From the NCBI RefSeq assembly GCF_030028105.1, contig NC_092383.1, forward strand, positions 98,355,604-98,419,603: 64,000 bases of DNA, in the 5' to 3' direction. Source of the stretch: Mobula birostris. Lineage: Eukaryota. This document shows, in pieces, positions 1,048-58,581 of the stretch (positions are counted from its first letter, which is position 1; each line of letters opens with the position of its first letter). Both the position numbers and the translations under genes were made by a program. The notes beneath the pieces are model-generated. The model had not been told where the DNA came from. It saw only the letters and a list, made by a program, of their open reading frames with translations, and did not search any database.

Positions 1048-1120
1048 ATGAAGGTTCGTGAGCAAGGCTATGGGATGAGGACTTGCTGTGGTGATCTCCT
1101 GGTCTGGCTACTTTCTGCAG
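1048..1120 (+). CDS. SLAM-like receptor leader exon (MKVREQGYGMRTCCGDLLVWLLSA; alternative start at 1075)
   Basis: Hydrophobic stretch ending in CAG|GTAAGA, phase 1; joins exon 2 to give LLVWLLSAACLA, a signal-peptide-like sequence. Confidence 0.7.
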
Positions 1121-1374
1121 GTAAGATTCCACCATTGATCTCCTCCTGCTGCCGTGATCAAGGAGGCCAGCTCAGTGTTGTCCTTCAGTCTGTTAGGAGG
1201 AATAGGTGTAGAGACAATCGCCATGATATTCCATCTCCTGCAACCCTCCTTTCACTTTCTTGCCCTCTCCGTCTCCATCCATCTCCCTCACTCTGTCTCT
1301 CCAACTTTCAACACTTTTTGCCTGCTGCTTCCCTTTCTTCACTCTACTTCTGATCCTTCTTCTTACTCTTTATC

Positions 1375-1407
<33 letters not shown>

Positions 1408-4400
1408 GCTCTCCTTTTGTCTGTCTCTCTCACAGCCACTGGTGATCTTTGTCCCTTTACTTCCAACTCATTTTTTACTTTTCTTTAATGCTATATTAAT
1501 CTTTCTCTGTCTCTCTCTCCAATATCTCTCAATCTAATTTCCATTTTAGGTCATCAATTATGTTCAAGTTAATAATCTCAAGAATTTGTGAAACTGCTTT
1601 TTCAGCATACAACTTCCTGCCACAGATATCTAAAGATCAGGCCAATACTCACTGTGCTGGGCTCCCCTCCCTTCCCCATTCCACCCCCCCAACATAATCA
1701 CTGTGCTGGGCTCCCTTCCTGTTCCCCATTCCCTCCCCCCAGATACTCACTGTGCTGGGCTCCCTTCCTGTCCCCCATTGCCCCCCACCCACCCCCACAT
1801 ACTCACTGTGCTGGGCTCCCTTCCTGTCCCCCATTGCCCCCCCCCACCCCCACATACTCACTGTGCTGGGCTCCCTTCCTGTCCCTCCTCCCCACATACT
1901 CACTGTGCTGGGCTCCCTTCCTGTCCCCCCCTCCCCACATACTCACTGTGCTGGGCTCCCTTCCTGTCCCCCCTCCCCACATACTCACTGTGCTAGGCTC
2001 CCTTCCCTTCCCCATTCCCCCCCTCCACATACTCACTGTGCTGGGCTCCCTTCCTGTCCCCCCCCCCACATACTCACTGTGCTGGGATCCCTTCCTGTCC
2101 CTCCTCCCCACATACTCACTATGCTGGGCTCCCTTCCTGTCCCCCCCACCACCACATACTCACTGTGCTGGGCTCCCTTCCTGTCCTCCCCACCACATAC
2201 TCACTGTGCTGGGCTCCCTTCCTGTCCCCCCGCCACATACTCACTGTGCTGGGCTCCCTTCCCTTCCCCATTCCCCCCCTCCACATACTCACTGTGCTGG
2301 GCTCCCTTCCTGTCCCCCCCACCACATACTCACTGTGCTGGGCTCCCTTCCCTTCCTCATTCCCCCCCTCCACATACTCACTGTTCTGGGCTCCCTTCCC
2401 TTCCCCATTCCCCCCCTCCACATACTCACTGTGCTGGGCTCCCTTCCTGTCCCCCCACCACATACTCACTGTGCTGGGCTCCCTTCCTGTCCCCCCTCCC
2501 CACATACTCACTGTGCTGGGCTCCCTTCCTGTCCCCCCACTACATACTCACTGTGCTGGGCTCCCTTCCTGTCCCCCCTCCCCACATACTCACTGTGCTG
2601 GGCTCCCTTCCCTTCCCCATTCCCTCCCCCCACATACTCACTGTGCTGGGCTCCCTTCCTGTCCCCCCACCCCCACATACTCACTGTGCTGGGCTCCCTT
2701 CCCTTCCCCATTCCCCCCCTCCACATACTCACTGTGCTGGGCTCCCTTCCTGTCCTCCCCACCACCACATACTCACTGTGCTGGGCTCCCTTCCTGTTCC
2801 CCCCCCACATACTCACTGTGCTGGGCTCCCTTCCTGTCCCCCCCCACATACTCACTGTGCTGGGCTCCCTTCCCTTCCCCATTCCCCCCCTCCACATACT
2901 CACTGTGCTGGGCTCCCTTCCTGTCCCCCCACCACATACTCACTGTGCTGGGCTCCCTTCCTGTTCCCCCCTCCCCACATACTCACTGTGCTGGGCACCC
3001 TTCCCTTCCCCATCCCCCCCCCACATACTCACTGTGCTGGGCTCCCTTCCTGCCCCCCCCCCCACATACTCACTGTGCTGGGCTCCCTACCCTTCCCCAT
3101 TCCCTCCCCCCACATACTCACTGTGCTGGGCTCCCTTCCTGTCTCCCCTCCCCACATACTCACTGTGCTGGGCTCCCTTCCCTTCCCCATTCCCTCCCCC
3201 CACATACTCACTGTGCTGGGCTCCCTTCCCTTCCCCATTCCCGGGAGCGGGAGATAGAGGTTGAAGACCAGGGAAACTGGAACGGAGATTCGTGTGGAAA
3301 ACAGGGAGAGGCGGGTGAAGAGATGGAGGAGGAGGAAGGCAGAAGCGGAGGGAGAAGAGTACAGCCATTGAGAAGGAAAACGGAGAGATGATGGAGAGTA
3401 GCAACAGTGTGCTCAATGAGATGGGTAAAAGAGCGATGGAAACAGATCAAAGGGCAGTGACATTCACAAAGAGGGGGCTGCAGGAGAAAGGAGAAGAGAG
3501 AAAGGAAGGGTAGGAGAGAGAGAAGAAGTAAAATCAGCCGTCATCGGAGTGCATGGCAGAGCAGGCACGAGGGGCCAAATGGCCTTCTGCTCCTGTTTCA
3601 TGGGTGGAGTCAGAAGGGAGAACAGATGGAGAAACAATGAAAGGTGAGAATATGTTGAGGAAGGAAGGAGAGTGAATGAAAAGAGAACTCGTTTGAGGGC
3701 AGGGAAGGGGCAGTGAGCAGGAGGGGAGAGGTCAGAGGTTGGAAGGTGTGAAGGGGCAGTGAGCAGGAAGGGAGAGGTCAGAGGTTGAGGGGTGTGAAGA
3801 GGCAGTGAGCAGGAGGGGAGAGGTCAGAGGTTGAGGGGTGTGAAGGGGCAGTGAGCAGGAGGGGAGAGGTCAGAGGTTGAGGGCAGGGAAGGGGCAGTGA
3901 GCAGGAGGGGAGAGGTCAGAGGTTGAGAGGTGTGAAGGAGCAGTGAGCAGGAGGGGAGAGGTCAGAGGTTGAGAGGTGTGAAGGAGCAGTGAGCAGGAAG
4001 GGAGAGGTCAGAGGTTGAGGGGTGTGAAGAGGCAGTGAGCAGGAGGGGAGAGGTCAGAGGTTGAGGGCAGGGAAGGGGCAGTGAGCAGGAGGGGAGAGGT
4101 CAGAGGTTGAGGGGTGTGAAGGGGCAGTGAGCAGGAGGGGAGAAGTCAGAGATTGAGGGGTGGGAAAGATCATTAGGCCATAAGATATAGGAGCAGAATT
4201 AGACCATTTGGCAGATTGAGTCTGCTCTGCCATTTCATCATGGCTGATCCAATATTCTTCACATCCTCAATCTCCTGCCTTCTCCCAATATCCCCTCAGA
4301 ACAGACTAATGAAGAAACTAACAACCTCTTCCTTAAATATACCCAATAACCAGGCCTCCACAGACACCTGTGGGAATAAATTTCACACATTCACTACTCT

Positions 4401-7400
4401 CTAGCTAAAAAAAAAACCTGCTCCTTATATCCATCCGAAATAGATGTCCCTCTGTTCTGAAGCTGTGCCCTCTGGTCCTGGATGCCCACTGTAGGAAGCG
4501 TCCTCTCCTCATCCACTCTGTCAAGGCTCATCAGTATTAGATAGGTTTCAATGAGGTCACCCCACATTCTTCTGAATTCCAATGAGTAGAGGCCCAGAAC
4601 CATCAAACACTTTTCATAGGAAAAGGAGAGATAATAAAGAACAGAGTGAAAATTAGAAGAGAGAGGGAAAGAAGGGGGCTAAGATGGGAGGGAGGGGCTT
4701 TTGTTTGGGGAAGGGAGGGAGGAGGTGTGTGTGGGGAGAGTGATAGAGAGCTCCATGCCCATAACTTGCCTGTCCTCTTCCAGCTTGCCTTGCCTTGGAT
4801 GTGAAGACTCCAGATTACCCAGTCAACGCCAGCCTGCACCACCAGACCTGGTTACCTGTGCAGGTGGAGCCCCTGCCACAGGGAGCCGAGGTCAGCTGGA
4901 GTTTCCAGAGTAATGCTTCCTCAACTCTGATCGCTCGCTATGAAACAGACACGAAGAAGGTGAAGTATTTTGTTGGCAAGCAGCTTGGGCAACGTTTCAT
5001 GATGCTGGACAATTTCACCCTCTGGATAAATAGTGTGAAGTGGGAGGATGCAGGAACTTACATTGTGACAGTCTTCACACCCAAGGAATGGAAAGCAGAC
5101 ACTTCCCTCCGAGTGTACGGTCAGTCTCTTCATCCCCCTCAGCTCCTCTCCACATTGCTCCGACTTTGGAGATAGGACAGTGGTATTGATGGGTGTGTGC
5201 TTGATGCCAGTCCCTCCCTTCTCCTTCACCAGAAACAGGAACAGGGGTGACCACTCGGCCCCTTCAGACCCCTGCCTGTTTGCCACCCCCCTCCCACAGA
5301 CCATCCCCTGGTACTCATTCACATAGCGAGAGGATGAAGTGCCCCCTTTCTGGGAAGTTCCACAGATTCATGGGAAGAACTTCCTCCTCACCCTTGTCAG
5401 AATCAAGTGGCTCCGTATTTTTAAAATGTTGTTTTAAATTATTGAGATATACCATGGAATAGGCCCTTCCAGCCCTTTGAGCCATGTTGCCCAGAAGTCC
5501 CACGATTTAACCGAAACCTAATGACGGGACAATTTACAATGACCAATTAACCTATCAACTGGTGTGTCTTTGGGCTGTGGAGCACCCGAAGGAAACTGAA
5601 GCGGTCACAAGGAGAATGTACAAAGTGCATACAGGCAGCAGCGGGAATTGAACCTGGGTCGTTGGTACTGTAAAACGTTGTGTTAACCACTACACTGCTG
5701 TGGCACCCCAAATCTCCACTCCCAGCTCCGCTACCATTTCCGAGCCGAGGGAATTTCCTCTCAGCATCTCCCTGCTCCAGCTCCCTCAGCATCTGCAGAA
5801 GTTAAAGTTAAAGATTAGTTTTATTTCTCACGTGTACATTGAAACATCGAAACAAGCAGTGAAATGTGTCATTTGTGTCAATGACTGAGGATGAGCTTGG
5901 GGCCGCCAGCAAGTGTTGCCATGCTTTCCGGTGCCCACACAAGATGCCCACAGTTTACTAACCCGAATTTGTTCATCTTTGGACTGTGGGAGGAAACCCA
6001 CGCAGTCATGGGGAGGATGTACAGTCTCCTTACAGACAGCGCTGGAATGGAAACCCAATCGGCGATCACCGCATTTCAAAGTGCAGCCACTACATCGCTG
6101 TGCCATCCAGAAACTGGCTTTCTATTCAAGCCTAATCTCGTCCCCGCAGCCCCCCGCCCTCCTTAGCGTCTCAAGGGGTGGTCCAGATCACCCTTGTCTA
6201 CCCCGCCCCCAATACCGGGGGCCCCTCCTTAGACAAGGAGAGCAGCACTGCGCAAGCACTCCAGGTGAGATCCCCCCAACACCCTGTCGACTGGCACAGA
6301 CCCCCCCCCCCCCCCGTGATGAACACCAGCCGGCTACTGTCCATGAGAAAGACTTGCAGTCACCACCCACGTGCTGACCTCCTGTGTTCTGTGTATGAGG
6401 CCGCCACACCCACTGTCTCCACTTACACGGCCTCCTGTGTCGCCATCCTCAGCACACCACGGGTCTCACCTTTCCCAAATTGCACGTCATGGGTCACGTC
6501 TTACATCCCGAATTGTCCTGGCAACTTAATAGCCACGGAAACGGGACCTTTCTGCTGATCCACACAGCTCCCATTGGCCACATCTGGGTCGTACTTTGCT
6601 CTACTTTAGATTGATCTGCTTTTCTATTGACTGCAGTCCCAGTCTGCCTGTCGCTGAGACAATTGAGAAGCAGGCTGTCACCAGCACTTCTCTCTCCAGA
6701 TGCACTCTCGCAATCGAGAATAACCTATTTGTTCCAGCTGTGTAAGTTAGCACGTCCTCGATGCCGACACTCAGACAATGCCCACATCGAAGCTGTGTTC
6801 CGATCGGGTCAGTGACCTTATTGAAACAGATAATCGGCCTGACAGCGGCTCAGGGTGGATGTCCTTCTTGGAGAGGGTGACATAGAACATTCCAGATGGA
6901 GATAAGTTGAAGGTTCAAAGGTTCATTTCATTGTCAAAGTATGAATGTGCAATAGAACTCCGATACTTATCTTCTCCAGGGAGCCAGGAAATATAGAAAG
7001 ACCATAAGATCTTGAATGCAAAGACATCGACTCTCCCCACCCCAACACACAAAAAAAAAGAAAAAGGAACAAAACTTGCAAACACCGAAACCCCCCTCCC
7101 CTCCCTGACAGAGAATGAAAACAGCGACAATAGCGTCAAATCCCCGACTCACTCCTCGTTAGAAAAAACAGTGACAACAACATAAATCTCCAACCCCCTC
7201 TACATCAGAAAAAAAACAGACCACCCCCTCCCCCCACAACGCACAACACCCCCAGCGCCCAGTGGAAATCGCTCCCCACCGCAGCAACAAAGTGGTGGCT
7301 GGTCAAACGGAGGGATCCCTACCAGAGAGACGGGAGCCTGCTTTGGTTGTGACCCCGAGTCAGGATGGTATCGAACCTGCTGATTCTCCTCACTTTCCAC

Positions 7401-10400
7401 CCGCAGAGCCGGTGTCCAACGTCACCGTGGAGGTGCTAAACATCACCTCTGGCCAGTCCTGCAACGTGACCCTCCGATGTTCTGCCGCAGCCGGAAACAA
7501 GCTGAGTTTCGGCTGGAGCCCCAGGAACGGTGCAGCCCTGGGGCAGATTTCAGACCGCGGCGCCGACCTCTCGCTGTCACTCGCCTCCTCTGACACAGTT
7601 GACTACGCCTGCACGGTCTGGAATCCCGTCAGCCAGGCGACTGCCCACTTCTCCAGCGAACATGCCTGTCAGCAGGAAGGTAAGTGTGGACAGGAACAGG
7701 GGACTAGAGTGACAGAGTCACAGACAAGTACAGCACAACAACAGGCCCTTCGGCCCATCTATGTGCTGCTGAGCCATTTAACCTGCGTACTCCCATCAAC
7801 CTGCACCTGGACCAGAGCCCTTCCATCCAGCTACCTATCCAAATTTACCCTAAACGTTGCAATCCAGCTGGCAGCTCGTTCCACATTGAGTGAAGAAGTT
7901 TCTCCTCATGTTCTCCTTAAACTTTTCACCTTTCACCCTTGACCCATGAGCTCCAGTTGTAATCCCACCCAACCTCAGTGTGAAAAACCTGCTTTCATTA
8001 CCCATCTATACCCGTTATAATTTTGTATACCTCTATCAAATCTCCTCTCAATCTTCTACGTTCTAAGGAATAAAGTCCAAACTTATTCAATCTTTCCCAA
8101 TAACTGAGGGAAAGGTTAGGAGCAGGCATGCAGGCAGTGATCAGTATGGAGATATGACCCACAGCAGCACGGCCAGTGGTAAGGGTGCTTTGTAATGTAC
8201 AGCACTGAAATAGACCCTTCAGCCCATCTCATTCATGCTGACTGTGTGTCTTTCTACGCTACTCCTATACACCCCATACCGTATGCCCTAGTAAATCTGT
8301 GCTACACTCTCTGTTGCTGCCTCGTGCTCCCTATTGTGTGGTAAACGGAACTGTATACAATATGCTAACTCATCTTTTGCATAGCTGCAACATCTCAAAT
8401 CTTATTCACAGTGCCTCATCCAACATACACAAGAAAACCAAATACTCTTCCATTTTGTGTCCACACTTACTCGTTGGCAATCAGTGATGAGCGCTGTGCC
8501 GCAACGGTTGGTGCCTGTGCCCACAACTGTTCATGATATACATTAACGATATGGAACAAGGGACCCAGTGCAGTGTATCTAAATTGAGTGGAAAAGCAAA
8601 TTGTGCAGAGGATATGGAGAGACTGCAGAGAGGTCTTGAGGGGGCTTGTGTATGAATCGCAAAAGGTTGGTTTGCAGGTGTGGTAGTCTGTCAAGAAAGA
8701 GAAGGCAGAGGGAATGTTGGCATTCATTGCTAGAGGGATTGAATTTAAGAGCCAACTTAACTATACAGGGTACTGGTGAGGTCACATCTGGAGTACTGTG
8801 TGCAGCTCTGGTCTCCCTACTTGAAGAAGGATATACTGGCTTTGGAGGTGGCGCAGAGGAGGTTCACCAGGTTGATTCCAGAGATGAGGGGGTTTGACAA
8901 TGAGGAGAGATTGACTCAGGACTGGGCTTGCTGAAATTCAGAAGGATGAGAGGAGATCTTATAGAAACATAAAATCATGAAAGGGATAGATAAGATAAAG
9001 GGAGGAAAGTTGTTTCCACTGATAGGTGAGACTAGAACTAGGGGACATAGCCTCAAGATTTAGGATAGTAGATTTAGGATGGAGATGAAGAGGAACTGCT
9101 TTTCCCAGAGAGTGGTGAATCTGTAAAATTCTCTCCCCAGTGAAGCAGTGGAGGCTACTTCAGTAAATATATTTAAGACAAGGTTGGATAGATGTTTGCA
9201 TAGTAGGGGAATTAAGGGTTATGGGAAAAGGCAGGTAGGTGGAGATGAGTCCATGGCCAGATTAGCCATGATCTTATTGAATGGTGGAGTAGGTTCGATG
9301 GGCCAAATGGCCTACTCCTGCTCTTATTTCTTATGTTCTTATATGTTCTTTCAGGGAGCTCTGGACTCCTAGATCCCTCTCTACATCAATGCTCTTTAGT
9401 ATCCTGCCATTTACTCTACACGTCGTGGACCAGGAACAATCCCTTCAGCCTGCCATGTCTGCTATGACCATGATGTTTGTCTAAACTAATCCCACCTGCC
9501 ATCATAGTCTATAATTCAGGGATAGTGAACATTTTTGAGAGCATGTGTCCAAATAGGGGATAATCTTCTGAAGATTTCTCTCATATACCGTGGTAATTTT
9601 GAGTACAGATTTTTATTGAATAATGAACAATTTACTTACTGTCTGTTCTGCCGCTGGCATTTAGGGCGGCAATGAAGGTCCTCCATCTCTGCCGGTGCTC
9701 AGGGCTTCCTTCATCACGTCAGTAGCTTCACTACCGTCAATCACACAAGTCCCGGGTGGAGACTCAGGAATACAGTCCCACACAGATGTAGAAGGATTCT
9801 TCATTGCTGTTTCCGTAACAGTTTTGTTTAACCAGTCAGGGTTGTTAGCCCTGAGCTGAACCTCTGAACCTGGAGGACCGGTGGACCACTCTTAGTCTGG
9901 CCTCTAACCTTTCACCTGTTTGGCATGGGTGACCTTGCCAAGAGCTAAATGATAAAGCCTTGACTCTCCAGGTCATTGAGGCAAGCAAGCCTCCAAACCC
10001 TACAAGGTTGTGATCCCTCTTGGAGGATTTATGAATTAGTAACAATAATTATAGACTTTTAAAATAAAAAGCATGTCCTGTTGTTTATTTATGTGCATTC
10101 ATTGTGTTAATATTAATAAGAGTATAACAGAATGAGTGAAATAAATGAAACATTTTAGAAAACCAGTTCAAAATTTACTAAAATTAAACTTTCAAGAAGG
10201 CAATTGAAAAATACCATAATTTCTAAATAGTATCGTTACTGAACCTCATATACATTCCGAGGCCGCTGTTGGTCGGGGTCAACCATTGATGTTGTGTCCT
10301 AGGTACGCGAGCCTAGACAGTACGATATGGAGAGCGAGCTGTTACCACGTAGCAAGCTCCCCTTCTCCATGCATCTGATGAACCCAAAGGAATGGCAGCG

Positions 10401-13400
10401 ACTGATACAGTTTGGTTCCAGCAATGTCACAGGGAGTTGACAGTCAGCATTGAACTCAAAGTTGGACTGTCAAAGGGACTGCAGCTCTGGATTTTTCCCT
10501 CAGGATTTACTCCTGAAGTCTTCACCATGAGTGGGCATTGCCATGAGGGATCGGAGTTCTGAGATCACTTTTCTTTCTCGTAGATGAGGTGCCAACCATG
10601 GGTGACGAGCCCCATTTACCCGAAGCGACTGGCTTTAAGGCGTCACTAACCTGCTCTAGCCCCTTCTTTTGTTAGTAGAAATGGCTCTCCTGGGCTTAGT
10701 AGTTAAACCACATATGAAGGCTGGGAGCTGGACTTGCTTGTCAGAGACTATTTGAGAGGCACATCATTGAGATCATTTGATGGGTAGTGGGAGCTTGTCC
10801 CCATTACCACCCCCGGCTATAACAACCTTAAGGAACCACCATATACAGTATTACATAAGAAATGTAAATGTAAATCATAAACTTTGGTACATATTCATGA
10901 GAGATGAAGGAAAAGAAAGACACTTTACTCTCAGTGAGACTGCACTAATGATGACAAACAGTTTATATCCATGTGCATTCAGTTCTTTTGAGAGCTGTGC
11001 AGGTAGTACTGTATTTATCAGGAAGTCTTCTCCTGTACTTAGACTCCACCACGTTCATTTCTTTCTTTCCTAGTGTATCTGATATACTGAACAAACTGAA
11101 AAGAGTTTACAGCACAGTTTACAAGTATTTCACCAAGAAACTTAAAGAAAATAGTTTTTCTAAGAGAAGTGAAATGTATTTCAAAAAATAAATATTCACT
11201 GAGAAACTGAACTACTATACACGCAGCCATTGTTGTTATTATCATTGAATATCCAGTGTTCACTCGCAAATAATATAAGCAGGGGGTGATGTCATTGGCC
11301 CATTCATTTGTTATCCAAATCCTGACATGTACAGCAGGTCTGCAAGACTTTCAAAATGTGTCATCCAACATCACGTGCTCTTGCAACCATCTAGATGGCA
11401 GCAACCCAGATAGAGACAACTTCTAAACAAACGTCTCACTGCTCTTGGGTTGAAAATAATCATTCACTGCTTCATTTGGCAGTAAAGGTAATGTTTATGC
11501 ATCAATTTATTATGGGTGGGTAGCACTGCATGCCATGTGCCAACAAAATTTTTGCATGGAAACACTTACCATAACTTCACCAGCCTCGTACCTGTATCCT
11601 AAGCCCATTGGTGCGCCTATCCAAATGCTTCAGATGTTGTCCCTATGCGCTTTGACCACCGCCCCGGCAGTCTGTTCCATGTAATGCTACCTTGAATTCT
11701 TTACAGCTGCACGGACCACCCATTGCTCTGAGGAGGAAATTTTTACACAGACTGAAAACTGCACATCACTTTAAATATTTTTCTTTTGTATATGCATACT
11801 ATCAATATTTAGAGTGAAAACTGAAAATCACATACTTTTGGTTTTATTAATTGGAGTATAATGAAATACAGTACAACAAAGGAAATCTTTCACATTTTAT
11901 GAACTTTTTCTGTCTTTATTACAAATCCATTGTCCATAAGCACTGTCCAGATTAATTTTGCATCCAGATGAAAGATATGTCTTAATCCTCATTAGATCCT
12001 CCAAGTGTTCCACTTCTAGTCTGTTTCCGGATTTATATTTAATTGAATTCATAAGACTGAATCTATATTTACAATCAGCACTAGAAACTTGAAATGTTCC
12101 AACAATGACAACAAGAATTGATCGTTCTTCAAATTCTTCATTTCTACGCATGTAGTTCAACATAGTGAACATTTTAATTAATTAAATCAGCCTTAACTTT
12201 CTCAGAAACAACACATTCGAAATCACAATATTGCTGAAATATTTTTGAGGCAACACTTTCATTGTATATAAAAAGAAAATTCCAGCTGTGTGGTAACAAA
12301 GGCTATGTGCATGGTGGTACTTCAGTTACTGCATAGCCGCCCACCCGCACAACTTAGATGGAATATTGTTTCAAGCAACTACCATCCTTACTGTGATAAA
12401 CTTGCCTCACAGATCTCCTTTAACTGTTTTCCCCTCTCACTTTAAAAATCTGTGCCCTCCAGGGCTTGACATTTTCATTGTAACATAATTTGACTTCCTG
12501 CAATACATTACCTCATACCTGACTGGATTAAATTGTAGCTGCCACTGCTCTGCCCAACCTGCCAGTTGTACATCCAACTTTATCCTTAGGTAACCATTGT
12601 CGCTGTCTATGGTCTACCAATTTTTGTGCCATCCGAAAACTTACTTCTGAGACTGCTCCCACATTCTGAACCAAGTTCCTTATCTACATATTACAGCCAG
12701 TGTAGTGGCTAATGCGATGCTGTACAGCTCGGGGCACTTTGGAATTTGGAATTCAATTCTGGTGCTGTTCTGTAAGGAGTCTCTGTAAGTCCTTCCTGTG
12801 GCATGAGTGTGTTCTCTCTGGGTGTTCCAGTTTCATCAAAGACGCGCTGGGCAGGTGAATTGGTCATTGTAACTTATCCCATGGTTATGTTAGGGTTAAT
12901 TGGGGGTTGTGGGGTTGCTGGGGTGGTGAGGTTCGAGGAGTCAGAAAGGCCTACTCTACACTGTTATGCTAAATAAACAAGGGTCCCAGTGCCCATCTCC
13001 TAAATACAGAAATTGTTATAGACTTCCGGGACAACCCTATTGATCCGCAGATACTGAAACCTGGAACAGGATTTTATGATGTTGGACAAAGTCATAAGGT
13101 CAGGCACCGTCTATGGAGGGAAATGGTTAGTTGATGTTTCAGGTCAAGACCCTTCACCTCGACTCCGCTGCTGAGTCCCCCCCCAGTGCTTTGTGGGACG
13201 TGAGATACCTGACACGATTAGTCAGGGCATAGAGTAGAAGAGGCCAGGTTTTGATTTGACTCTTACAGAAGATCGGTTAGGCCACCCCTGGAGTTCTGCA
13301 CACAGTTATGGTCACCACACTGGAGAGGTTGCAGAGAAGTTTCACCAGGATGTTGATTAGATCCAATCATTTCCATTCTGAGGAGAGACTGGGCTTATTA

Positions 13401-15377
13401 TGCCTGCAGCAGAGGAGACTGACTGGTGACCTGATAGTGATATACCGAATCATGACGGACATACAGAGTGGATAGTGAAACACTTTCCCCATGACAGGTT
13501 TCCAGAATCCGAGTGCAAAGGTTAAAGGTGAGGAGCGTGAGTGTTCTTGTTGACACAACTCTCACAACATTTAATATGAGCACTTGAATCACCCAGGTAT
13601 GAGATAAGCGTTCATCAATTGGCTTTGACTGGAAGGATTAGCATGAACATGATAGGCCTTTTTCTGTGCAATATAATTCGTGATGTCTGTTCACGTGCAA
13701 TAAAAGTAAAATACCAGGACTGGGGTTTAGACACAGAGCAAAGCTCCCTCCATACCGCCTATCACCATGGACAGATATAGTCATTGTATTCCTGGGTTAG
13801 ACCAACGAGGGAGCACATCTCTTTGTCAGCCTTGTCCAGGAACTTGTCTCCTGTTGATGTCTCAGATGTTCTTCATTTTCTGTTCTCTAGCCTCCAGGAT
13901 TCCCATGGCCTTGATCGCAATATCGTGCCTCATCTGTGTGATTCTCTGCATAATTGTCATCTATATATACTGCAGAAAATGCAAGAGTGTTTCCCTTACA
14001 GGTATGATGTACCCTTTGTCACAAACGATGTGTGTCCTACTTCATGTAACACTCTCTCAGTGCTCCCAACCAGCCCCCTGAAATTCCTTTCAGAAATGTG
14101 CTCCCAAGGGACCGCTTCCATTCTTTCACCGCTTTCTGAATCCCCACAGACCTTACCAACCTACACTGACAGCCTCTGGTTCTCCCCACGAACGGAACGT
14201 CCCCACTACATCCCACCCCTTACTCAGGTTAAAAACTCCACCGGAGTGCCCCCTCATCTCTCTTAATCACAGGTGACACCGCTTTTTCCCAAGATACAAC
14301 CTGGGTGCCCGTAGGCTCCGTCATTCCCTCCTTTCCCGCTCTATCCCTCTTCTCCACGGCCTCGCTGCCTGGTGGGGTGACTTCCAGTGATGTCAGAGTC
14401 CACTTTTGATAACGACTGTTTCTCAACCCCTTTTCAACTCATTTCCTCTCAGGAAAAAATGGCCTCCCTATTCCTGCTCCCAAGATGGACCGTGTTCACT
14501 TTAACTGCGTATGGGTAGCCCTGTGCTGGCACCAATGTGATGCAGAAGCCAGAACTGCAAGGTTGCTCCTGGCGTGGTTTATCCTGACGGGAGATGAAGC
14601 AGATTGGCACTGTCCTCCTTGGAGTTTAAAAGAACTAGAAGTATTCTCCCTGAAAAGTCCATACTCCTTACAGAATGGTGTTTTCCCTGGCTGGGCATCC
14701 AAACCAGGGGGCACAGTCTCAAAATGTTCTGGGGTCAGTAACTGGTATACCACTGGGCAAACATCAAGTTTCAGATTCTGCCCCGATCGCAGTTGTTCAC
14801 ATTCTCAGACCACAATCTGTTCTTTTGCTGACAATTCTCATTACAGACAGGAGTCAGGGGAGTAGACATGATGGATCAAGTGCCCTCAATGACTACGTGA
14901 GTCTTACCATATAATTTCATAAACTGTGGAGGGGTGGAGGGGACAAAGAGGATTTTGGAGATGTGGTGGGATCTACAGAAATAGGGATGTAGGAGCCAGG
15001 GGGCGTGAGAGATGCGAAAAGGCATTGTGGGGTGGGGAGATGTAATGTTAGAGTTCGATGAACCTTGGGCAGTAAGGTTGGGAACAGGATGACTGTTAGC
15101 TGGGACGGGATCTGGTAATGAGCCATGAGGGAGAGAGAATCAGACTGAGTATGAGAAGATGGACGATAATGGTGCATTTGGGCTGGGATCAGAGATCACG
15201 TGGTGAAGGTGCTGCAGATGGGGGGGGGGCAACACAGCAGACAAGCTGGGGTTCACAGCGAGCAGTTGGTGAGGGTTACAGCAGTACCAGCAATAGAGTA
15301 TGCATCTTCATTCACAGGAGAACATTGGCCAGGAGGAGATCGCAACAGTCTACACCACCATTCAGAAAATTTCATGA
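1048..15377 (+). CDS. CD2/SLAM-family (SLAMF-like) type I membrane receptor, about 300 aa; model join(1048-1120,4784-5119,7407-7679,13891-14001,14847-14896,15318-15377)
   Basis: All junctions are GT-AG and phase-compatible (1,1,1,1,0); 903 nt open frame. Signal peptide + V domain without the canonical disulfide + C2 domain with Cx5C...YxC...NPVS...C + TM + tail with TVYTTI ITSM. A specific mammalian orthologue cannot be assigned. Extra tail exons near 14273 or 14453 are possible. Confidence 0.85.
1377..1405. repeat. (CT)n microsatellite within a pyrimidine-rich tract
   Basis: ctctctct run. Confidence 0.9.
1645..3241. repeat. C-rich minisatellite, about 36 units of 40-55 bp
   Basis: Nearly invariant core CACATACTCACTGTGCTGGGCTCCCTTCC followed by one of two variable poly-C tails. 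Confidence 0.97.
3693..4165. repeat. 46-bp purine-rich minisatellite, about 10 copies
   Basis: GAGGGGTGTGAAGGGGCAGTGAGCAGGAGGGGAGAGGTCAGAGGTT. Confidence 0.95.
4170..4606 (-). mobile_element. CR1 LINE 3' fragment
   Basis: [19 protein letters not shown] on the minus strand plus CR1-type 3' UTR. Confidence 0.85.
4784..5119 (+). CDS. SLAM-like receptor Ig V-type domain exon
   Basis: Acceptor tcctcttccag, donor G|GTCAGT; EVSW, TLWINSVKWEDAGTYIVTV, LRVY; no B/F-strand Cys, a CD2-family hallmark. Confidence 0.88.
5440..6105 (-). mobile_element. Two tRNA-derived V-SINE-like elements (about 5440-5706 and 5812-6105)
   Basis: Reverse-strand A/B-box-like GTAGTGGTTA...GGTTCAATTCCC and V-domain-like GTGGGTTTCCTCCCACAGTCCAAAGA. 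Confidence 0.65.
7407..7679 (+). CDS. SLAM-like receptor Ig C2 domain exon
   Basis: Acceptor ccacccgcag, donor G|GTAAGT; EPVSNVTV...SCNVTLRCS...FGW...YACTVWNPVS...HAC. Confidence 0.9.
7720..8110 (-). mobile_element. CR1 LINE 3' fragment
   Basis: Reverse-strand CR1 3' UTR (gggccgaagggcctgt) and degenerate ORF2 C-terminus. Confidence 0.7.
8570..9350 (+). mobile_element. CR1 LINE 3' fragment
   Basis: [17 protein letters not shown] motifs; (TCTTATGT)n tail. Confidence 0.88.
11890..12370 (-). mobile_element. Degenerate hAT transposase C-terminal dimerisation-domain remnant in an AT-rich tract
   Basis: GTFQVSSADCKYRFSLMNSIKYKSGNRLEVEHLEDLMRIK resembles the hAT pattern P.SSA.CER.FS.M..IK...RNRL...L..LM.I. 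Confidence 0.65.
12697..12978 (+). mobile_element. V-SINE-like SINE
   Basis: Degenerate tRNA-like head, V-domain, aataaa tail; related copy at 57970-58246. Confidence 0.6.
13891..14001 (+). CDS. SLAM-like receptor transmembrane exon
   Basis: Acceptor ttttctgttctctag, donor G|GTATGA; ASRIPMALIAISCLICVILCIIVIYIYCRKCKSVSLT (hydrophobic helix plus basic stop-transfer). Confidence 0.85.
14847..14896 (+). CDS. SLAM-like receptor cytoplasmic exon (DRSQGSRHDGSSALNDY)
   Basis: Acceptor ttctcattacag, strong donor TAC|GTGAGT; phase 1 in and phase 0 out links the TM exon to the ITSM exon. Confidence 0.65.
15318..15377 (+). CDS. SLAM-like receptor terminal exon with ITSM (ENIGQEEIATVYTTIQKIS*)
   Basis: Acceptor tcttcattcacag; TVYTTI matches TxYxxI/V; stop TGA at 15375-15377. 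Confidence 0.8.
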   Translation, partial: ENIGQEEIATVYTTIQKIS

Positions 15378-18300
15378 GCATTTTCTGGTCTCCTCAGAGC
15401 ATATTCCGCCCTCTCCAAACAACTCTGGACAGCTCCTCAGCTTATTCCCTTCCCACACCCCACGGCCAACCTGACACCTGCATCAGTGACCAGGATCCAT
15501 CACCCAAATCACTCCTGAGGGAGAAGAGCAACTGCAATTCCCACATCACCTCTGTAAGAACAAAGGGAAGGAACAAACTGGCCCACCCTGCATCGGGGCT
15601 GAAAATACTTTGCTTCTAAGCTGCCATGCCATTGATTCAGCATGGTGCATGGGGAACCGATCAAGCATCTGCTTTGTCCTGAATGGTGCTAATCTTCAAA
15701 AAGTTGTTGGACAATGCAGACAAGTGGAGAGTATTCTATCATACTTGGAAATAGGGGAAAGGCCTTGGGTATCAGGAGGTGAGACACTCCCCACAGGATC
15801 CCCAGCTCTCATTGATAAGCATATGGACTGAAGCTTTCCTGATGTCCTGTATTTTCATCCCTGCTGAGCCATCTGTCAATAACACAAACCCTGGAGACAT
15901 TCCCAGTCAGCATATGCAGGCTTTCCCTAAATAAATTTGAGAATCATGGTAAACCTCTAAACTGGAAAAGATCTGTAGACAAAGTCATCTTAGTGGGAAT
16001 ATGATGTATGGTTGCCATTTTTTTCTTGTGATCTGGATGTCATTGGCTGAGAAGGTGATGAGCTGCCTTCCTGGCCCACTGCAGTCTTTCTGGTGACGCA
16101 GCTTTCAGTGCTATAGTTGAGAGTGTTTCAGGAAGTAGATCCAGTGTTGATCAAGGACCCATGCCAGGATGGTGAGGAGTATGAACAGAAACCCACAAGT
16201 GCTGCTGCACCCCTGTTCTTGCTACCCTTGTCCTCGGAAGTAAAGTTGAGATTAATCTGGGCAAGTAACTACACTGCTTTTGGTAAGATGATGCATTTGG
16301 CAAGCAGTGAGACAGAATATACAGATGGTGGTGTGGGGTGGGAAGGAGTGTGTGAGGGTGGCTGGGGGAGAACCAGCATGAGTGGAAATCAAGAGTGGGA
16401 CGTGAGTGAGGAAGGCAGTGAAGGAGAGGGAATAAGTGGGAGAGTAAAGTTGGGTGAGGAAAAGAGGCATGTAAAGATAAGGGAGTGCCCAGAAGAGGGC
16501 AAGAGAGAGCAACAAAATCTGGTGGAAGATTTTGTTGAGCAGCATCTGGGAAGTAACTGTAACGTTTCAGGTTAAAATCTGATGCAGGATCTCGATCCAA
16601 AAGTCATTTCAATCCCCCCACCTGATGCTGTTTGACCTGTAGAATTCCTCCAGTGGATTGCTTGCTGCACAGGTTCTGACATCCGCAGTCTCATGTCTCC
16701 GGAAATGAGGGAGGCAGTGTGCTGCTGCCATCACTCCCACTATCTCCACGTCCCCTGGTCTCATGGGGTTTACATCCCTGGATCCATTCAACATCAGCCA
16801 GCGTCCCTTCCACCTCCCTCTTCTATATGTTAACAAAACTCATCCTCACTCCCTTCTCCAACTGGCCCAAATCAGCCAGCCCCCTTCAATGTGTTCCCTG
16901 CTCCAGCCAGGAAATGCCCCAGCTCCTCCAGTGCTAGCCCGGGGCTGGAGCACCCTATCTAGGGCACCCCCTTTAGCATACCCTGCCTGTCCTTAAGTCC
17001 CGCCAGCATGAGATGGAAGACTGGGGCTGAGGCTCGCCCCGGAGGGGAGTCCGAGCTCAGGACACCTTCTGCAGCTTTTCTCACTGCTTCGAGTAGCATC
17101 CACTATTTCCCTGTCCAATCTCCCAGTATATTTGCGGTCTGCTTATGGGCCTTCTCGCTACTTACAGGGCCATTAGACTTTCCAAAGGATGTTGAAGTCA
17201 TTGCAAGCATTACGCAAGAGTGTGAGCTGCAGAAAGACTGTCAAATACTTTACCTAATATGGTATTCAAGAGAGCCATCACCCCCACTACTCACTCAGTA
17301 TTGTGGGCAGCTCGCTAGACACACCAAGCTGTTTATTCAGAAATAAGCAACGAGGGCAGGCCACAGAGAAGTTCCTGGGGGCGGGGTTACGTTGACCGAC
17401 TGCACAGACAAGTCCCAGTATACCAGGTTAGTACAAGCACAGAGGCAATGTGAAGCTCCCCAAAGAGAGGCAAAGAGAAAGAGTGAGCACATGTGACAAG
17501 GTGCAGGTGGAAGATGAAACGAGACACCCCATCAAGGGGAAACAGCCTTTCCACACCCACCTTGTCAAGCTTTGTAAGAGGTTTCAATGTGTCAGTGAGA
17601 TCATCTCTCGTTCTTGTAAATTCTAGACAGGACCGTCCCAGTCTGCTTCATCTCTCCTCATGATAGCCCCCCTCCCTCCCCCCCACCACAGAATCAATCT
17701 GGGGAACCTTTGCTGTGCTCCCTCTAAAACACAAAGATCTTTTCTGAGCTGAGGAACCCAGACCTGTAAACAATTTTCCAGTCTTGGTCTCCCTAGGGCC
17801 CCGAAAAATTTGAAAAAAACCCTCAAATCATGTTTGAGTAAAAGGCAACATATCATCTCCCCCCGTCAGGTGAGTAGTCTTCAACGATACCCAGGTTCCC
17901 CTCATCACCAACACTCCAGCCCCTTTCCAACCTGCCATCAGAGTCTTGTTCTGTCTAAATATTTGAGTGCCTATCACCTTTGGTAATCGAACATTGTGGA
18001 GCATTCTAAAGGTGCATATCTAGGTAAACAGCACCCACTGCCTCCTCCCCGGTGAAATGCAGGAGGCTAAATTAAGACATGGCCTCCATCTTCAATGTCC
18101 CTGCTGCTCTTTCCAGTAATTCCTTGAGGCGCTGTTGCTGGTGGCTGGAATTCTGGGTGGTTCTCCAATCTTTCCCGAGATACGGTGCTATCCTTCAGAT
18201 ACTCAATGGGAAGCCATTCAACCGCACCGCCTGTTAGGAACAGGTCACAGTTCCGATGCTGATCACACAGAAACGGCCTGTCAGCCTTGAGGTACTTACA

Positions 18301-19612: not shown

Positions 19613-19989
19613 TCAGGGCCCGTGCTGCAGCATGAGATTGCGCAGCAGCCGCTGCCGACCCGCTGTGTAGTCATCTTCGTCCACATTGACCAGGAGCTTG
19701 ATGGCCTCGTGGCCCACGGCCTGCTTGAGCGAGTCAGTGATAAAGACGCCCTTCAAGGCTTCTAGCAGTGAGCCATTGATGTAGTCCCTCCAGAAGGCAT
19801 CCAGGTATGTAAGCTCGGAGAACTTGATGTCACAAATGATGGAGCCTAGGTCCCGGGACTTGAGGATGGTGTTGGCCTGTGCAAACCGCTCAAACTGGCG
19901 CTCCAGCCGCCCAGGCTTGTTGGAGAACACATTGCCCTCCAGCGCCGTCTGGTGCTGACAGTACTCGGCCCTCACACGCAGACGGATGT
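19613..19989 (-). CDS. DEDD: DEDD last coding exon
   Basis: Acceptor tttttctactcag; [13 protein letters not shown]...[11 protein letters not shown]. Confidence 0.97.
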
Positions 19990-22900
19990 CTGAGTAGAAA
20001 AAGCACAGGATGAATGCAGGGGGCAGAAAGGGGGATGAAGGGGAGGGGAGGCAGAGGGCAGATTACATGGAGAAGGGTGGGGTTGAGGTAGCAAAGAGGG
20101 TCCATGGGAAAATTTGGCTGTGTGGAATTAGAATTGACTCGCTCACAGAAGGCATAGCACGTACTAAAATCAATACACAATATTGAAAGGACAGGCAGGT
20201 CAGCAGATGGGGTGGCATGGCTCTATTGGCTTAAAAAAATCATATCTTTAGAAAAAGGAGACATAGGATTGAAAGATGTAGAATCCTTGTGAGTAGAGTT
20301 AAGAAACTGCAAAGGTAAAAAGACCCTGACACAAGTCAAAAGAGGAAGAGGCCATTTGGCCCACAATATTGTGCTGAACCAGCTAGAAAGCAAATCAAAA
20401 ACACCCAGATACTAATCCCTAATCACTAGAAGTTCGAGAATGTCAAGGGGCAGGAGTGAGTGTGGTTGATATTACTATGGAGAAGGTGCTCGGGAAGCTG
20501 AAAGGTCTGAGGTAGATAAGTCACCTGGACCAGATGGATTACAGCCCAGGGTTCTGACCGAGGTAGATCAAGAGACTGTGGAAGCATTAGTAGCAATCTT
20601 TCAAGAACTGCGAGATTCTGGAAAAGTTCTAGAGGATCGGAAAATTGCAAGTGTCACTTCACTCTTTAAGGGAGGGAGGCAAAAGAAAGGAAATTACAGG
20701 CTAGTTAACCTGACTTGGTGGTTGGGAAGATGCTGGAGTCTGACAGGAGGCAAAGGGTGGGGCTAGAGGGGGTATGTTTCTGGCTGCCTGCCAGTCACTA
20801 GATCTTTTCCACAGAGGTGTTGGGACTGTTTCTTTTCATGTTACTTGGCAATGATCTGGATGATGAAACTGATAGCTTTGTGGCCAATTTGTGGACAATT
20901 CAAAGATAAGTGGAGGGGCAGGTAGTATTGAGGAACCAGGGAGACTGCAGAAGGACCCAAGCAGACTGGGAGAATGAGCAAAGTAGCAGCAGATGGAATA
21001 TCGTGGAGGAAGGTGTACTGTCACGCACTTTGGTAGAAGGATTAAAGGTAAAGGCCATTTTCTAACTGGGGAGAAAATTCAAAAATCACAGGTACAATGG
21101 GACTTAGGAGTCTTTGTGCAGGTTTCACTAAAGGTCACCTTGCAGGTGAGTTGGTGGCAAGGAAGTCAAATGCAATGTTAGCTTTCATTTGCAGAGGACT
21201 AGAATACAAAAGCAAGGACATACAGTGGCATGCAAAAGTTCGGACACCCCGGTCAAAATTTCTGTTACTGTGAATAGCTAAACGAGTAAAAGATGCACTG
21301 TTTCCAAAAGGCATAAAGTTAAAGATGACACATTTCTTTAATATTTTAAGAAAATTTTTATTTCCATCTTTTACAGTTTCAAAATAACAAAAAAGGAAAA
21401 TGGCTGGAAGCAAAAGTTTGGGCACCCGGCATAGCAGTACTTAGTAACACCCGTTTGGCAAGTATCACAGCTTGTAAACGCTTTTTGTAGCCAGCTAAGA
21501 GGCCAAAAAGTTCAAAGGAACATCTACACAAGCCTGATGCATTCTGGAAATAAGTCCTGTGGACTGATGAAGTTAAAATAGAACTTTTTGGCCACAATGA
21601 GCAAAGGTATGTTTGGAGAAAAAAGGGTGCAGAATTTCATGAAAAGAATCCCTCTCCAACTGTTAAACACGGGGGTGGATCGATCATACTTTGGGCTTGT
21701 GTTGCACCCAGTGGCACAGGGAACACTTACTGGTAGAGGGAAGAATGAATTCTATTAAATACCAGCAAATTCTGGAAGCAAACATCACACTGTCTGTAAA
21801 AAAGCCAAAAGTGAAAAGAGGATGGCTTCTACAACAGGATAATGATCCTAAATACACCTCAAAATCCACAGTGGACTACCTCAAGAGGTGCAAGCTGAAA
21901 GTTTTGCCATGGCCCTTACAGTCCCCTGACCTAAACATCATCGAGAATCTGTGGATGGACCTCAAAAGAGCAGTGCATGCAAGACGACCCAAGAATCTCT
22001 CAGAACTAGAAGCCTTTTGCAAGGAAAAATGGGTGAAAATCCCCGAAACAAGAATTGAAAGATTCTTAGCTGGCTTCAAAAAGCGTTTACAAGCTGCGCT
22101 ACTTGCCAAAGGGGGTGTTACTATGTACTGCCATGCAGGGTGCCCAAACTTTTGCTTTAGGCCATTTCCCTTTTCTGTTATTTTGAAACTGTAAAAGATG
22201 GAAATAAAGAAGTTTTCTTGCTTAAAATATTAAAGAAATGTGTCATCTTTAATTTATGCCTTTTAGAAATCAGTTCATCTTTTACTCACCTAGCTATTCA
22301 CAGTAACAGGAATTTTGACCAGCGGTGCCCAAACGTTTGCATGCCACTGTACATGCTGAGGCTTAACAAGGCATTGGTCAGCATGCGCTTGGAGTATTGT
22401 GAGCAGTTTTGGCCCCCTTATCTAAGAAAAGATGTGCTGGCAATGTAGATGGTCCAGAGCAGGTTCACAAGAATGATTCTGGGAAAGAAATAATTAAAAT
22501 ATGAGGAGTGTTTGATGGCTCTGGGCCTGTACTCAGTGGAGTTTAGAACAATGGGTGAAATGCATCAAATATTGAAAGGTCTAGATAGAGTGGATATGGG
22601 GAGAATAATTCCTATTCGAGTGCCTCTAGGATCAGAGGGCACAGCATCAGAACACAAGAACATCCCTCAAGAACAGAGATGAGGACGAATTTGTTCAGCC
22701 AGAGTGTAGTGAATCATTGGAATTCATTGCCACAAGTGGCTGGAGATAAGTCACTGGGTACATTTAAAGCAGAGGTTGATATGTTCACGATTAGTCAGGG
22801 TGTCAAAGGTTACGAGGAGTTGTCAGGAGAATTGGGTTGAGAGGGATAATAAATCAGCATGATGGAAAGGCCCAGTAGACTCAATGGACTGCATCTGAGA

Positions 22901-34911: not shown

Positions 34912-35741
34912 GGTAGGTGAGGGGCACGTGGAGAGGGGTGCTGGGTCCTCAAAGAGAAGCAACCCTTCTCTCCACAAGTCCTGTCCTCTCTTTGAAGAGG
35001 TGGGCCTGAACCTCAGAAGAGGAGCTGCACGACTCTGCCACTAGGACAGTCAGACTCTTCTGCGTTCCATTAGCACCTGCCCCCCACCCAGCTATATGCA
35101 GAAAGTGGGCTCCCCCTTCCTCCTGCTCTGTGTGGCCTGCACAAAGTGATACTGGAGGAGATATTGAAGCCCCTGCTAACGTGGCACTGAGCCTTGCAAA
35201 GTAGCTTCTCAGAAAAAGAGGTGGGGGGAAAGAAAGAGCCAAGATTGAAGGTGTCGGGGGGAGGGGCCAGGGAGTCCTCAGTTAAAATAAAGGCTTCCAG
35301 ATCCAGGGATACTATCCTACCCTGCGCAGGAAACTGAAATTTCAGAGTTCCTGGTTATTAAAGTGGATTGACTGAAGTAAAAATCCCCTCAGAATTACAA
35401 ATAGAACTTTGCTCCTACCAAAAAAAATTTAATAAATAGGATCGATATTTTGATTTAGACTGATAGGCAGACTACTGATGGTGACTCAAGGGTCAAGGCA
35501 GACAGTCACAAAGTAAGGTCTTTGGGAAAAGAGGGACAGGTAAATAGACCCAGGGCAAAAACGAGGAAAAAGAGGCTGCCAAGGGAAGACAGCTCCAGCC
35601 AGACTTTTGAGCTGAGGATTTATAGCAAAGGCAGGGAACGGATGGAAAGAGGTGAAATGGAACCGACCAAACAATATGAAAGCCTTGTTCCAAAAAGCTG
35701 GACCAAAGGAAGGGAGGTTTCGGGGAAAGCGGCGCAGTTAC

Positions 35742-37299: not shown

Positions 37300-58581
<21,282 letters not shown>

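What the first reader, a model, noticed from the sequence alone, without database searches (positions are those of the whole stretch)
1048..15377. Complete ITSM-bearing SLAM-family receptor whose signalling tail is invisible in the ORF track
Seen: six phase-compatible exons giving leader-V-C2-TM-tail. The V domain lacks the B/F cysteines, the C2 domain has four Cys with NPVS, and two tiny exons create DY|ENI across a splice junction and end in TVYTTI. Established: this architecture and TxYxxI/V define SLAM-family receptors that recruit SAP/EAT-2 or SHP phosphatases; YxN is a GRB2-SH2-type motif. Inference: a divergent, probably poorly characterised chondrichthyan SLAM receptor, implying switch-motif signalling in early jawed vertebrates.
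Basis: partly seen in the sequence, partly recalled or inferred. Interest (0 to 1): 0.7.

Follow-up and report, generated by a model that had tools for sequence, protein, structure and literature searches.

The report
Ray SLAM-type immune switch receptor
This is a real, spliced ray gene, already in the databases under an automatic name, for a SLAM-type immune-cell surface receptor whose short tail likely binds the adaptor SAP and Grb2 as its mammalian relatives do; it is an ordinary member of a known family.

Summary
Confirmed but ordinary. The six GT-AG exons give a 300-aa leader-V-C2-TM-tail protein identical to RefSeq XP_072135134.1 ('CD48 antigen-like', Mobula birostris). Assembled contigs of public runs show the tail junctions (exon 5-6 in 3 of 4 runs). 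It is best filed as CD2/SLAM: NTB-A is the best sequence and TM-score match, all four C2 cysteines align with NTB-A, and it lies beside a DEDD-like gene, NDUFS2 and FCER1G, genes that share a region with the mammalian SLAM cluster. Trees favour SLAM but do not formally reject CEACAM (AU p=0.054). It belongs to an elasmobranch lineage that keeps the ITSM in models from 9 of 12 species, usually with YxN upstream. The genome encodes a SAP-like adaptor that keeps Arg78. SAP and Grb2 binding is inferred, not shown. Exon-5 skipping (1 of 4 runs) removes both motifs, like CS1-S. In Mobula alone the two tyrosines also fit an ITAM pattern. Shark SLAMF genes have been listed in print since 2014, and this scan noted similar shark and skate SLAM receptors on other DNA.

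The parts
1048..1120 (+). Exon 1: start codon and most of the leader (second in-frame ATG at 1075; stingray models start there)
   Evidence: signal peptide inferred from hydropathy, no predictor run
4784..5119 (+). Exon 2: end of leader and V-set Ig domain without B/F cysteines
   Evidence: Pfam V-set E 2.5e-10; best PDB sequence hits SLAMF6, CD48, CD48
7407..7679 (+). Exon 3: C2-type Ig domain with C155, C161, C205, C224 and NPVS
   Evidence: all four Cys align with NTB-A 2if7 and are invariant or nearly so in alignment A1
13891..14001 (+). Exon 4: transmembrane helix (no charged residue) and basic stop-transfer stretch
   Evidence: hydropathy 3.3; helix 233-259 in model; exon 3>4 joint in 3 of 4 runs
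14847..14896 (+). Exon 5 (50 nt): tail, ending in DY (Tyr281 codon 14894-14896); skipping it shifts the frame
15318..15377 (+). Exon 6 coding part: ENI (completes YEN), ITSM, stop
15345..15362 (+). ITSM TVYTTI (Tyr293)
   Evidence: consensus TxYxxV/I/L in PMC3958483; conserved in skates and sharks
15930..15935 (+). Candidate polyadenylation signal AATAAA (use not shown; contigs run past it)
19616..35040 (-). Neighbour (context only): DEDD-like gene with DED and TRADD-like N domain exons, tail-to-tail with the receptor
   Evidence: Pfam DED 1.1e-14 and TRADD-like_N 1.3e-14; the name DEDD is recalled, not from a call

Best explanation
The gene makes a spliced 300-residue CD2/SLAM-family surface receptor that likely works like mammalian SLAM receptors: contact through its V domain would trigger phosphorylation of two tail tyrosines, which are predicted to recruit the adaptor SAP and Grb2. 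Shown: exon structure, splicing of the tail exons, V-C2-TM anatomy, conservation of both tyrosine motifs across rays, skates and sharks, and a SAP-like gene in the same genome. Inferred from mammalian SLAM biology: (1) the V domain binds itself or a SLAM paralogue on another leukocyte; (2) a Src-family kinase phosphorylates Tyr281 and Tyr293; (3) pTyr293 (TVYTTI) binds SAP, which through its conserved Arg78 would couple Fyn (role of Arg78 recalled), and without SAP binds single SH2 domains of SHIP or SHP weakly, giving the switch; (4) pTyr281 (YEN) binds Grb2, as SLAMF3 does. The tyrosines are 12 residues apart, shorter than the 23-30 reported for tandem SHP-2 engagement, so strong SHP-2 inhibition is less likely. 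Skipping exon 5 or keeping intron 4 or 5 removes the ITSM and would give non-signalling forms, as with CS1-S.
For: Identical RefSeq model; splice joints. SLAMF6 is the best PDB sequence hit, E 6.4e-10 against 2e-5 for CEACAM1. NTB-A has the highest target TM-score in the listed fold hits, 0.81 and rmsd 2.9, against 0.71-0.73 for CEACAM1. In an IQ-TREE tree of 42 V-C2 regions the gene sits in a 7-row elasmobranch clade (100/98) on the side holding human SLAMF6 and horse CD84, split from 9 CEACAM-like fish and frog rows by a 99/98 branch. Neighbours: DEDD-like, NDUFS2 just past the window, an FCER1G-like TM exon about 20 kb further, PFDN2 about 0.8 Mb away; these four share one region with CD244, LY9, SLAMF7, CD84, SLAMF6, CD48 and SLAMF1 in horse (PMC8532986 table). 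LIPE, a CEACAM-flanking marker, is on another contig. An upstream Tyr plus ITSM is present in 13 of 22 lineage proteins, YxN in 10 of those 13. A SAP-like gene at G000:C12:114.47-114.51 Mb has exons 1 and 3 matching human SAP best (E 3.9e-17, 2.4e-13) with Arg78 aligned. Grb2 binding to SLAMF3 (PMC5882332), ITSM partners and spacing (PMC3958483) and CS1-S (PMC7409338) were read as passages.
Against: No binding, phosphorylation, ligand or cell type is shown; tissues of the runs are not on record. With the A1 profile, two-domain CEACAM1 chains score as high as SLAMF6 (74.8-76.1 against 75.4 bits), and Foldseek ranks mouse CEACAM1 first by E-value. AU tests do not reject the lineage nested among CEACAM-like rows (p=0.054) or sister to them (p=0.40). 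No mammalian orthologue can be assigned. Synteny is broken: NCSTN and PEX19 lie on C4, UFC1 on C34 and the only VANGL hit on C7, so 4 of 8 markers looked at are on the same contig. 9 of 22 lineage proteins lack the ITSM.
Confidence: 0.75

Rival explanations
1. It is a CEACAM-related (or other CTX-like) adhesion receptor whose ITSM recruits SHP phosphatases rather than SAP; automatic names such as HEPACAM2-like or CD276 homolog reflect this.
For: Cys-less V domain and NPVS are shared with CEACAM1; profile scores tie with SLAMF6; AU p=0.054 and 0.40; Xenopus CEACAMs have ITSMs, YxN motifs and motifs split by phase-0 introns (PMC5112662 passages); names vary across orthologues.
Against: The extra C155/C224 pair matches NTB-A and is absent from the CEACAM1 alignment and from the CEACAM-like rows; higher TM-score to NTB-A; 99/98 branch; DEDD-NDUFS2-FCER1G neighbourhood with SLAM-like paralogues on the same contig, and LIPE elsewhere.
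Confidence: 0.07
2. It is a SLAM receptor, but in Mobula the tail works mainly as an ITAM: D-YENI-x8-YTTI is doubly phosphorylated and binds the tandem SH2 domains of Syk or ZAP-70, in competition with SAP.
For: The tail matches [DE]x0-2YxxI/Lx6-8YxxI/L in both Mobula species; only 4 of 188 proteins scanned match, the other two being CEACAM-like fish proteins.
Against: Not conserved: skates have YENT and sharks YENG, YENN or YGND with longer spacers. The acidic residue is at -1, not the -3 of the strict consensus quoted in PMC5112662. The stingray last exon could not be read.
Confidence: 0.1
3. The main products are the ITSM-less forms (exon-5 skip, intron read-through), so the receptor serves mostly as a ligand or decoy like CD48, SLAMF8 or SLAMF9.
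For: RefSeq lists ITSM-less models for four ray species (P0001, P0002, P0004, P0006); exon-5 skip joint in 1 of 4 runs; intron contigs present in all 4 runs.
Against: The exon 5>6 joint is in 3 of 4 runs; the ITSM is kept in 9 of 12 species; the alternative frame is hit by non-triplet indels in runs X5 and X9, and read-through tails differ between species, so they do not look selected.
Confidence: 0.08

Closest known systems
RefSeq XP_072135134.1 'CD48 antigen-like isoform X2' (Mobula birostris) and its orthologue models (XP_062921204.1, XP_032898509.1 'SLAM family member 6-like', XP_048476785.1, XP_067883518.1)
   Same: Identical 300-aa protein; orthologues are 35-98% identical in alignment A1 (32% for the whale-shark model) and share the tail motifs.
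   Different: Automatic names only and inconsistent (CD48, HEPACAM2, SLAMF5/6/8/9, CD276). It is not a CD48 type: it has a TM and signalling tail (CD48 lacks the C-terminal tail per PMC5882332).
Mammalian ITSM-bearing SLAM receptors: SLAMF6/NTB-A, CD84, SLAMF7/CS1
   Same: V (no disulfide) + four-Cys C2 + TM + TxYxxI/V; same fold (TM-score 0.81); linked to NDUFS2, FCER1G, PFDN2 and a DEDD-like gene; ITSM-less splice form as in CS1-S.
   Different: About 23% identity in the structural alignment with NTB-A; no one-to-one orthology; a very short tail (about 42 aa) with one ITSM instead of two or more.
SLAMF3/CD229 (Ly9)
   Same: A Grb2-type tyrosine site alongside ITSM; described as the only mammalian SLAM that binds Grb2 directly (PMC5882332 passage).
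   Different: CD229 has a duplicated ectodomain and a long tail (recalled); orthology not tested.
CEACAM1 and Xenopus/fish CEACAMs
   Same: Cys-less V domain, NPVS in C2, ITSM and YxN motifs, frameshifting skip of a small tail exon (CEACAM1-S, recalled).
   Different: Two-Cys C2 domain, different tree side, different flanking genes (LIPE/BCL3).

Membership tests
CD2/SLAM family | N-terminal V-set Ig domain without the B-F disulfide | tested here: met
   No Cys in 27-154; V-set E 2.5e-10; shared with CEACAM, so not discriminating
CD2/SLAM family | Membrane-proximal C2 domain with four cysteines (two disulfides; feature recalled) | tested here: met
   C155, C161, C205, C224 align with the four NTB-A cysteines; conserved in A1; bonding itself not measured
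CD2/SLAM family | Best sequence and structural match to CD2/SLAM ectodomains | tested here: inconclusive
   Single-sequence search and TM-score favour SLAMF6; profile bits and Foldseek E-value tie with CEACAM1
CD2/SLAM family | Phylogenetic placement with SLAM proteins | tested here: inconclusive
   On the SLAM side of a 99/98 branch; no independent root; AU p=0.054 for nesting in CEACAM-like rows
CD2/SLAM family | Linkage to the region of the mammalian SLAM cluster, with tandem paralogues | tested here: met
   DEDD-like, NDUFS2, FCER1G-like, PFDN2 on the same contig; 7 SLAM-like C2 exons at C18:96.8-98.2 Mb and another gene about 90 kb upstream. NCSTN, PEX19, UFC1 and VANGL hits are elsewhere
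ITSM-bearing SLAM receptors | Cytoplasmic TxYxxI/V/L | tested here: met
   TVYTTI in the spliced form; conserved in 9 of 12 species
ITSM-bearing SLAM receptors | SAP/EAT-2 adaptor encoded in the same genome | tested here: met
   Three-exon SAP-like SH2 region on C12 and a second SAP-family gene on C8
ITSM-bearing SLAM receptors | Phosphotyrosine-dependent binding of SAP/EAT-2 or SHP/SHIP | not testable with these tools
   Needs a pull-down or SPR
ITSM-bearing SLAM receptors | Homotypic or intra-family ligand binding; leukocyte expression | not testable with these tools
   Run tissues are not on record; needs cell assays
CEACAM family | Two-Cys constant domains and position between LIPE and BCL3 | tested here: not met
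   Four Cys in C2; LIPE on C9, gene on C18; BCL3 not searched
ITAM receptors | Conserved D/ExxYxxL/Ix6-8YxxL/I | tested here: inconclusive
   Loose pattern met in two Mobula proteins only; strict -3 acidic residue absent; not conserved in skates or sharks

The most novel reading that the evidence does not exclude
An old elasmobranch SLAM lineage, kept next to DEDD-NDUFS2-FCER1G apart from the expanded ray SLAM cluster, packs a Grb2 site and a SAP switch into 16 residues; in manta and devil rays the same two tyrosines have become an ITAM, making a three-way switch read by SAP, Grb2 or Syk/ZAP-70 and silenced by skipping a 50-nt exon.
Probability: 0.1. Interest if true: 0.55.

Novelty: new member of a known kind. 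Interest (0 to 1): 0.2.

Why it matters
As an ordinary SLAM it adds one well-supported case that the ITSM receptor, a SAP adaptor with the Fyn-coupling arginine, and the link to the FCER1G/NDUFS2 region were all present in the common ancestor of jawed vertebrates. That was already implied by genome lists. Its use is practical: a one-ITSM receptor conserved across sharks and rays and a matching ray SAP give a simple pair for the first biochemical test of switch signalling in cartilaginous fish, which my ten literature searches did not find in print. If the Mobula tail also acts as an ITAM it would show a short path from switch motif to activation motif.

Tried and rejected
Homodimer prediction of the ectodomain gave no answer (score 0.00, controls not folded, alignment not used); it is no evidence either way. 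The ESM Atlas did not hold the DEDD-like exon, so that gene's name rests on Pfam domains, neighbours and recall; a second DEDD-like gene lies on C1874. No listed run is on record as RNA; the first read-laying over 15 kb was swamped by repeats. Contig depth was not used to rank isoforms. Exon 3 of the second SAP-family gene (C8) was not found in the 40 kb fetched, so it cannot be called EAT-2. Three of seven targeted 1q23-type marker families plus VANGL fell on other contigs (the VANGL search used a stricter first look). AU tests could not tie the lineage to mammalian SLAMF5/6 (p=0.34) or to the expanded shark/ray clade (p=0.27), nor exclude either. The idea of a conserved second tail in the alternative frame, suggested for other shark SLAM genes by earlier scan notes, was rejected here because of non-triplet indels in that frame in two other organisms' runs. 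A cyprinid CD2-family paper was not held; the Xenopus SLAM paper named in earlier notes was not read. Pfam scans covered 150 ORFs of 75 aa or more from window 16-64 kb and 150 ORFs from the flanks, nearly all drawn from 290 filtered ones, so small exons of other neighbours may be missed.
Full report
Observation. Joining six exons (1048-1120, 4784-5119, 7407-7679, 13891-14001, 14847-14896, 15318-15377) gives 903 nt and a 300-aa protein; all introns are GT-AG with phases 1,1,1,1,0. The protein has a hydrophobic leader, a V-set domain (Pfam E 2.5e-10) with no Cys from 27 to 154, a C2 domain with C155, C161, C205, C224 and NPVS, six N-glycosylation sequons, a TM at about 233-253 and a tail of about 42 aa with Tyr281 (DY|ENI across the last intron) and Tyr293 (TVYTTI). 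It equals RefSeq XP_072135134.1, 'CD48 antigen-like isoform X2' of Mobula birostris, with 0 mismatches, and differs at 7 of 300 positions from the M. hypostoma model.

Splicing. On contigs of four public runs laid over 13700-15960, joints sit exactly at the predicted introns: 14896>15318 in X1, X2, X5 (3 of 4), 14001>14847 in X1, X2 (2 of 4), and the end of exon 3 appears as a loose end before exon 4 in X1, X2, X5. X5 also has a joint 14001>15318 that skips exon 5 (1 of 4). X9 shows no joint. These runs are RNA only by guess, the joint sides are 24-29 letters, intron contigs are present too, and depth cannot rank isoforms. Skipping the 50-nt exon shifts the frame to EHWPGG... and removes both motifs; this is the M. 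hypostoma X1 model. Stingray models end by reading into intron 5 or intron 4. The alternative frame carries non-triplet indels in X5 (7 nt at 15452, 1 nt at 15556) and X9 (1 nt at 15395), so I read it as loss of the motifs, not a second tail.

More than chance? In 100,000 shuffles of the 42-aa tail an ITSM appears in 3.6%, YxN in 9.1%, both in 0.35%, so conservation is the real evidence. Homologue searches and naming give a lineage of 20 proteins from 12 rays, skates and sharks (FastTree support 0.983 among 188 V-C2 regions kept from 232 proteins). With two partial shark proteins assigned by tail likeness, 13 of 22 have an upstream Tyr plus TxYxxI/V, and 10 of these 13 have YxN. Nine of the 12 species have an ITSM-bearing model. 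In the own genome the next best C2 matches are 46% and 30-37% identical (13 matches of 46 candidates), so the lineage looks single-copy here (lower-bound search) and distinct from a large expanded shark/ray clade.

Family. For SLAM: SLAMF6 is the top PDB hit of the whole protein (E 6.4e-10; CEACAM1 2e-5) and its four C2 cysteines align with the ray's. The AlphaFold2 model (mean pLDDT 77.6) matches NTB-A with target TM-score 0.81 and rmsd 2.9, above CEACAM1 (0.71-0.73), CD48/CD2 chimera (0.73) and CD2 (0.74). In an IQ-TREE tree of 42 chosen rows the lineage is 100/98 and lies with human SLAMF6 and horse CD84, across a 99/98 branch from nine two-Cys rows, three of them named CEACAM-like and two hemicentin-like. 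Against: profile scores tie CEACAM1 and SLAMF6, Foldseek E-values rank CEACAM1 first, and AU tests give p=0.054 for nesting among CEACAM-like rows and p=0.40 for a sister position. There is no independent root and no mammalian orthologue can be named.

Neighbourhood. A DED plus TRADD-like-N gene lies tail-to-tail at 19.6-35.0 kb (the name DEDD is recalled). NDUFS2 exons begin to match 0.7 kb past the window end, an FcR-gamma-like TM exon lies about 20 kb further, and PFDN2 about 0.8 Mb away. A horse table lists these four in one region with CD244, LY9, SLAMF7, CD84, SLAMF6, CD48 and SLAMF1 (PMC8532986, one table passage). Other SLAM-like exons lie about 90 kb upstream and at 96.8-98.2 Mb of the same contig. 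NCSTN and PEX19 (C4), UFC1 (C34) and the VANGL hit (C7) are elsewhere, so the block is only partly kept. LIPE, which flanks Xenopus ceacam genes (PMC5112662 passages), is on C9. Together with the cysteines this makes SLAM the best filing, at about 0.9.

Partners. An SH2 search (106 matches) and a follow-up with a SHIP-like exon (29 matches) found two short first exons whose best PDB match is human SAP (E 3.9e-17 and 2.4e-14). For the C12 gene two more exons were found; exon 3 matches SAP at E 2.4e-13 and keeps the residue aligned to Arg78 (its role in Fyn binding is recalled). For the C8 gene a likely exon 2 was found but no exon 3.

Mechanism. Most likely a SLAM-type switch. Shown: anatomy, splicing, motif conservation, presence of a SAP-like gene. 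Inferred: V-domain contact with itself or a paralogue; Src-family phosphorylation; SAP binding at pTyr293 with weak SHIP/SHP binding when SAP is absent (ITSM consensus, partners and affinities from PMC3958483 passages); Grb2 binding at pTyr281 as for SLAMF3 (PMC5882332 passages). The 12-residue spacing is shorter than the 23-30 that paper used for tandem SHP-2 binding. ITSM-less splice forms parallel CS1-S (PMC7409338 passages). A side observation: in both Mobula species the tail fits a loose ITAM pattern, found in 4 of 188 proteins, but skates and sharks do not fit and the strict acidic residue is misplaced; I give an ITAM role 0.1.

What is in print. Ten searches found no paper on this gene or a functional test of a chondrichthyan ITSM. 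SLAMF1- and SLAMF7-like elephant shark genes are listed in a supplement of PMC3964593 (two rows seen); slamf genes appear in the white shark and sawfish tables of PMC10751288 (one legend passage and supplement rows); sh2d1a-like marks a bamboo shark T-cell subset in PMC11372145 (passages). PMC4718992 passages added nothing. Earlier notes of this scan describe several shark and skate SLAM receptors on other DNA (unchecked AI notes); nothing was on record near this window.

Verdict. Observation confirmed; interpretation right on family and motifs, overstated on novelty. New member of a known kind, already annotated automatically. Interest 0.2.

Noticed in passing
window 19616-20062 and 34480-35040, minus strand: DEDD-like gene (DED and TRADD-like N domains) tail-to-tail with the receptor; a second DEDD-like gene lies at G000:C1874:355 kb.
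   Followed up: partly
G000:C18:98420307-98422000 and L096:746-991: NDUFS2 exons just past the window end (its 5' exons probably lie in the window's last part, not mapped) and an FcR-gamma-like transmembrane exon about 20 kb further.
   Followed up: partly
L084:8204-8818 and L085:1630-2040 (+): Another divergent V plus four-Cys C2 SLAM-like gene about 90 kb upstream, about 30% identical in C2; its TM and tail were not traced.
   Followed up: partly
G000:C8:19.85-19.87 Mb (L047, L065): A second SAP-family SH2 gene (exons 1 and likely 2 found); could be EAT-2 or a SAP duplicate. Exon 3 not found in 40 kb.
   Followed up: partly
G000:C18:96.8-97.2 Mb, C18:98.19 Mb, C6:189.4-189.65 Mb (L003-L012): Clusters of SLAM-like four-Cys C2 exons; rays carry a large expanded SLAM clade (76 rows in the tree), many with two ITSMs or none.
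   Followed up: partly
window 14456-14862: RefSeq isoform X1 (401 aa) takes an alternative exon inside intron 4 and runs through exon 5 in another frame; no joint for it was listed in the four runs laid.
   Followed up: partly
window 1645-3242, 3693-4166, 37494-39866, 54363-54699: Minisatellite arrays (periods about 48, 46, 37 and 38 nt); the first two lie in intron 1.
   Followed up: no
window 21667-22191, 50215-51084, 32522-33983, 48998-49423, 61234-62701; L092-L093; L098-L099: Transposon remnants: DDE_3 transposase pieces, LINE-type reverse transcriptase pieces, a broken LTR retrotransposon (PNMA-like gag, RT, RNase H, integrase) just upstream, and a Helitron remnant downstream.
   Followed up: no
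G000:C4:115.29-115.44 Mb: NCSTN and PEX19 stay together but on a different contig from DEDD-NDUFS2-FCER1G, and UFC1 is on a third: the mammalian 1q23-type block is split in this ray.
   Followed up: no
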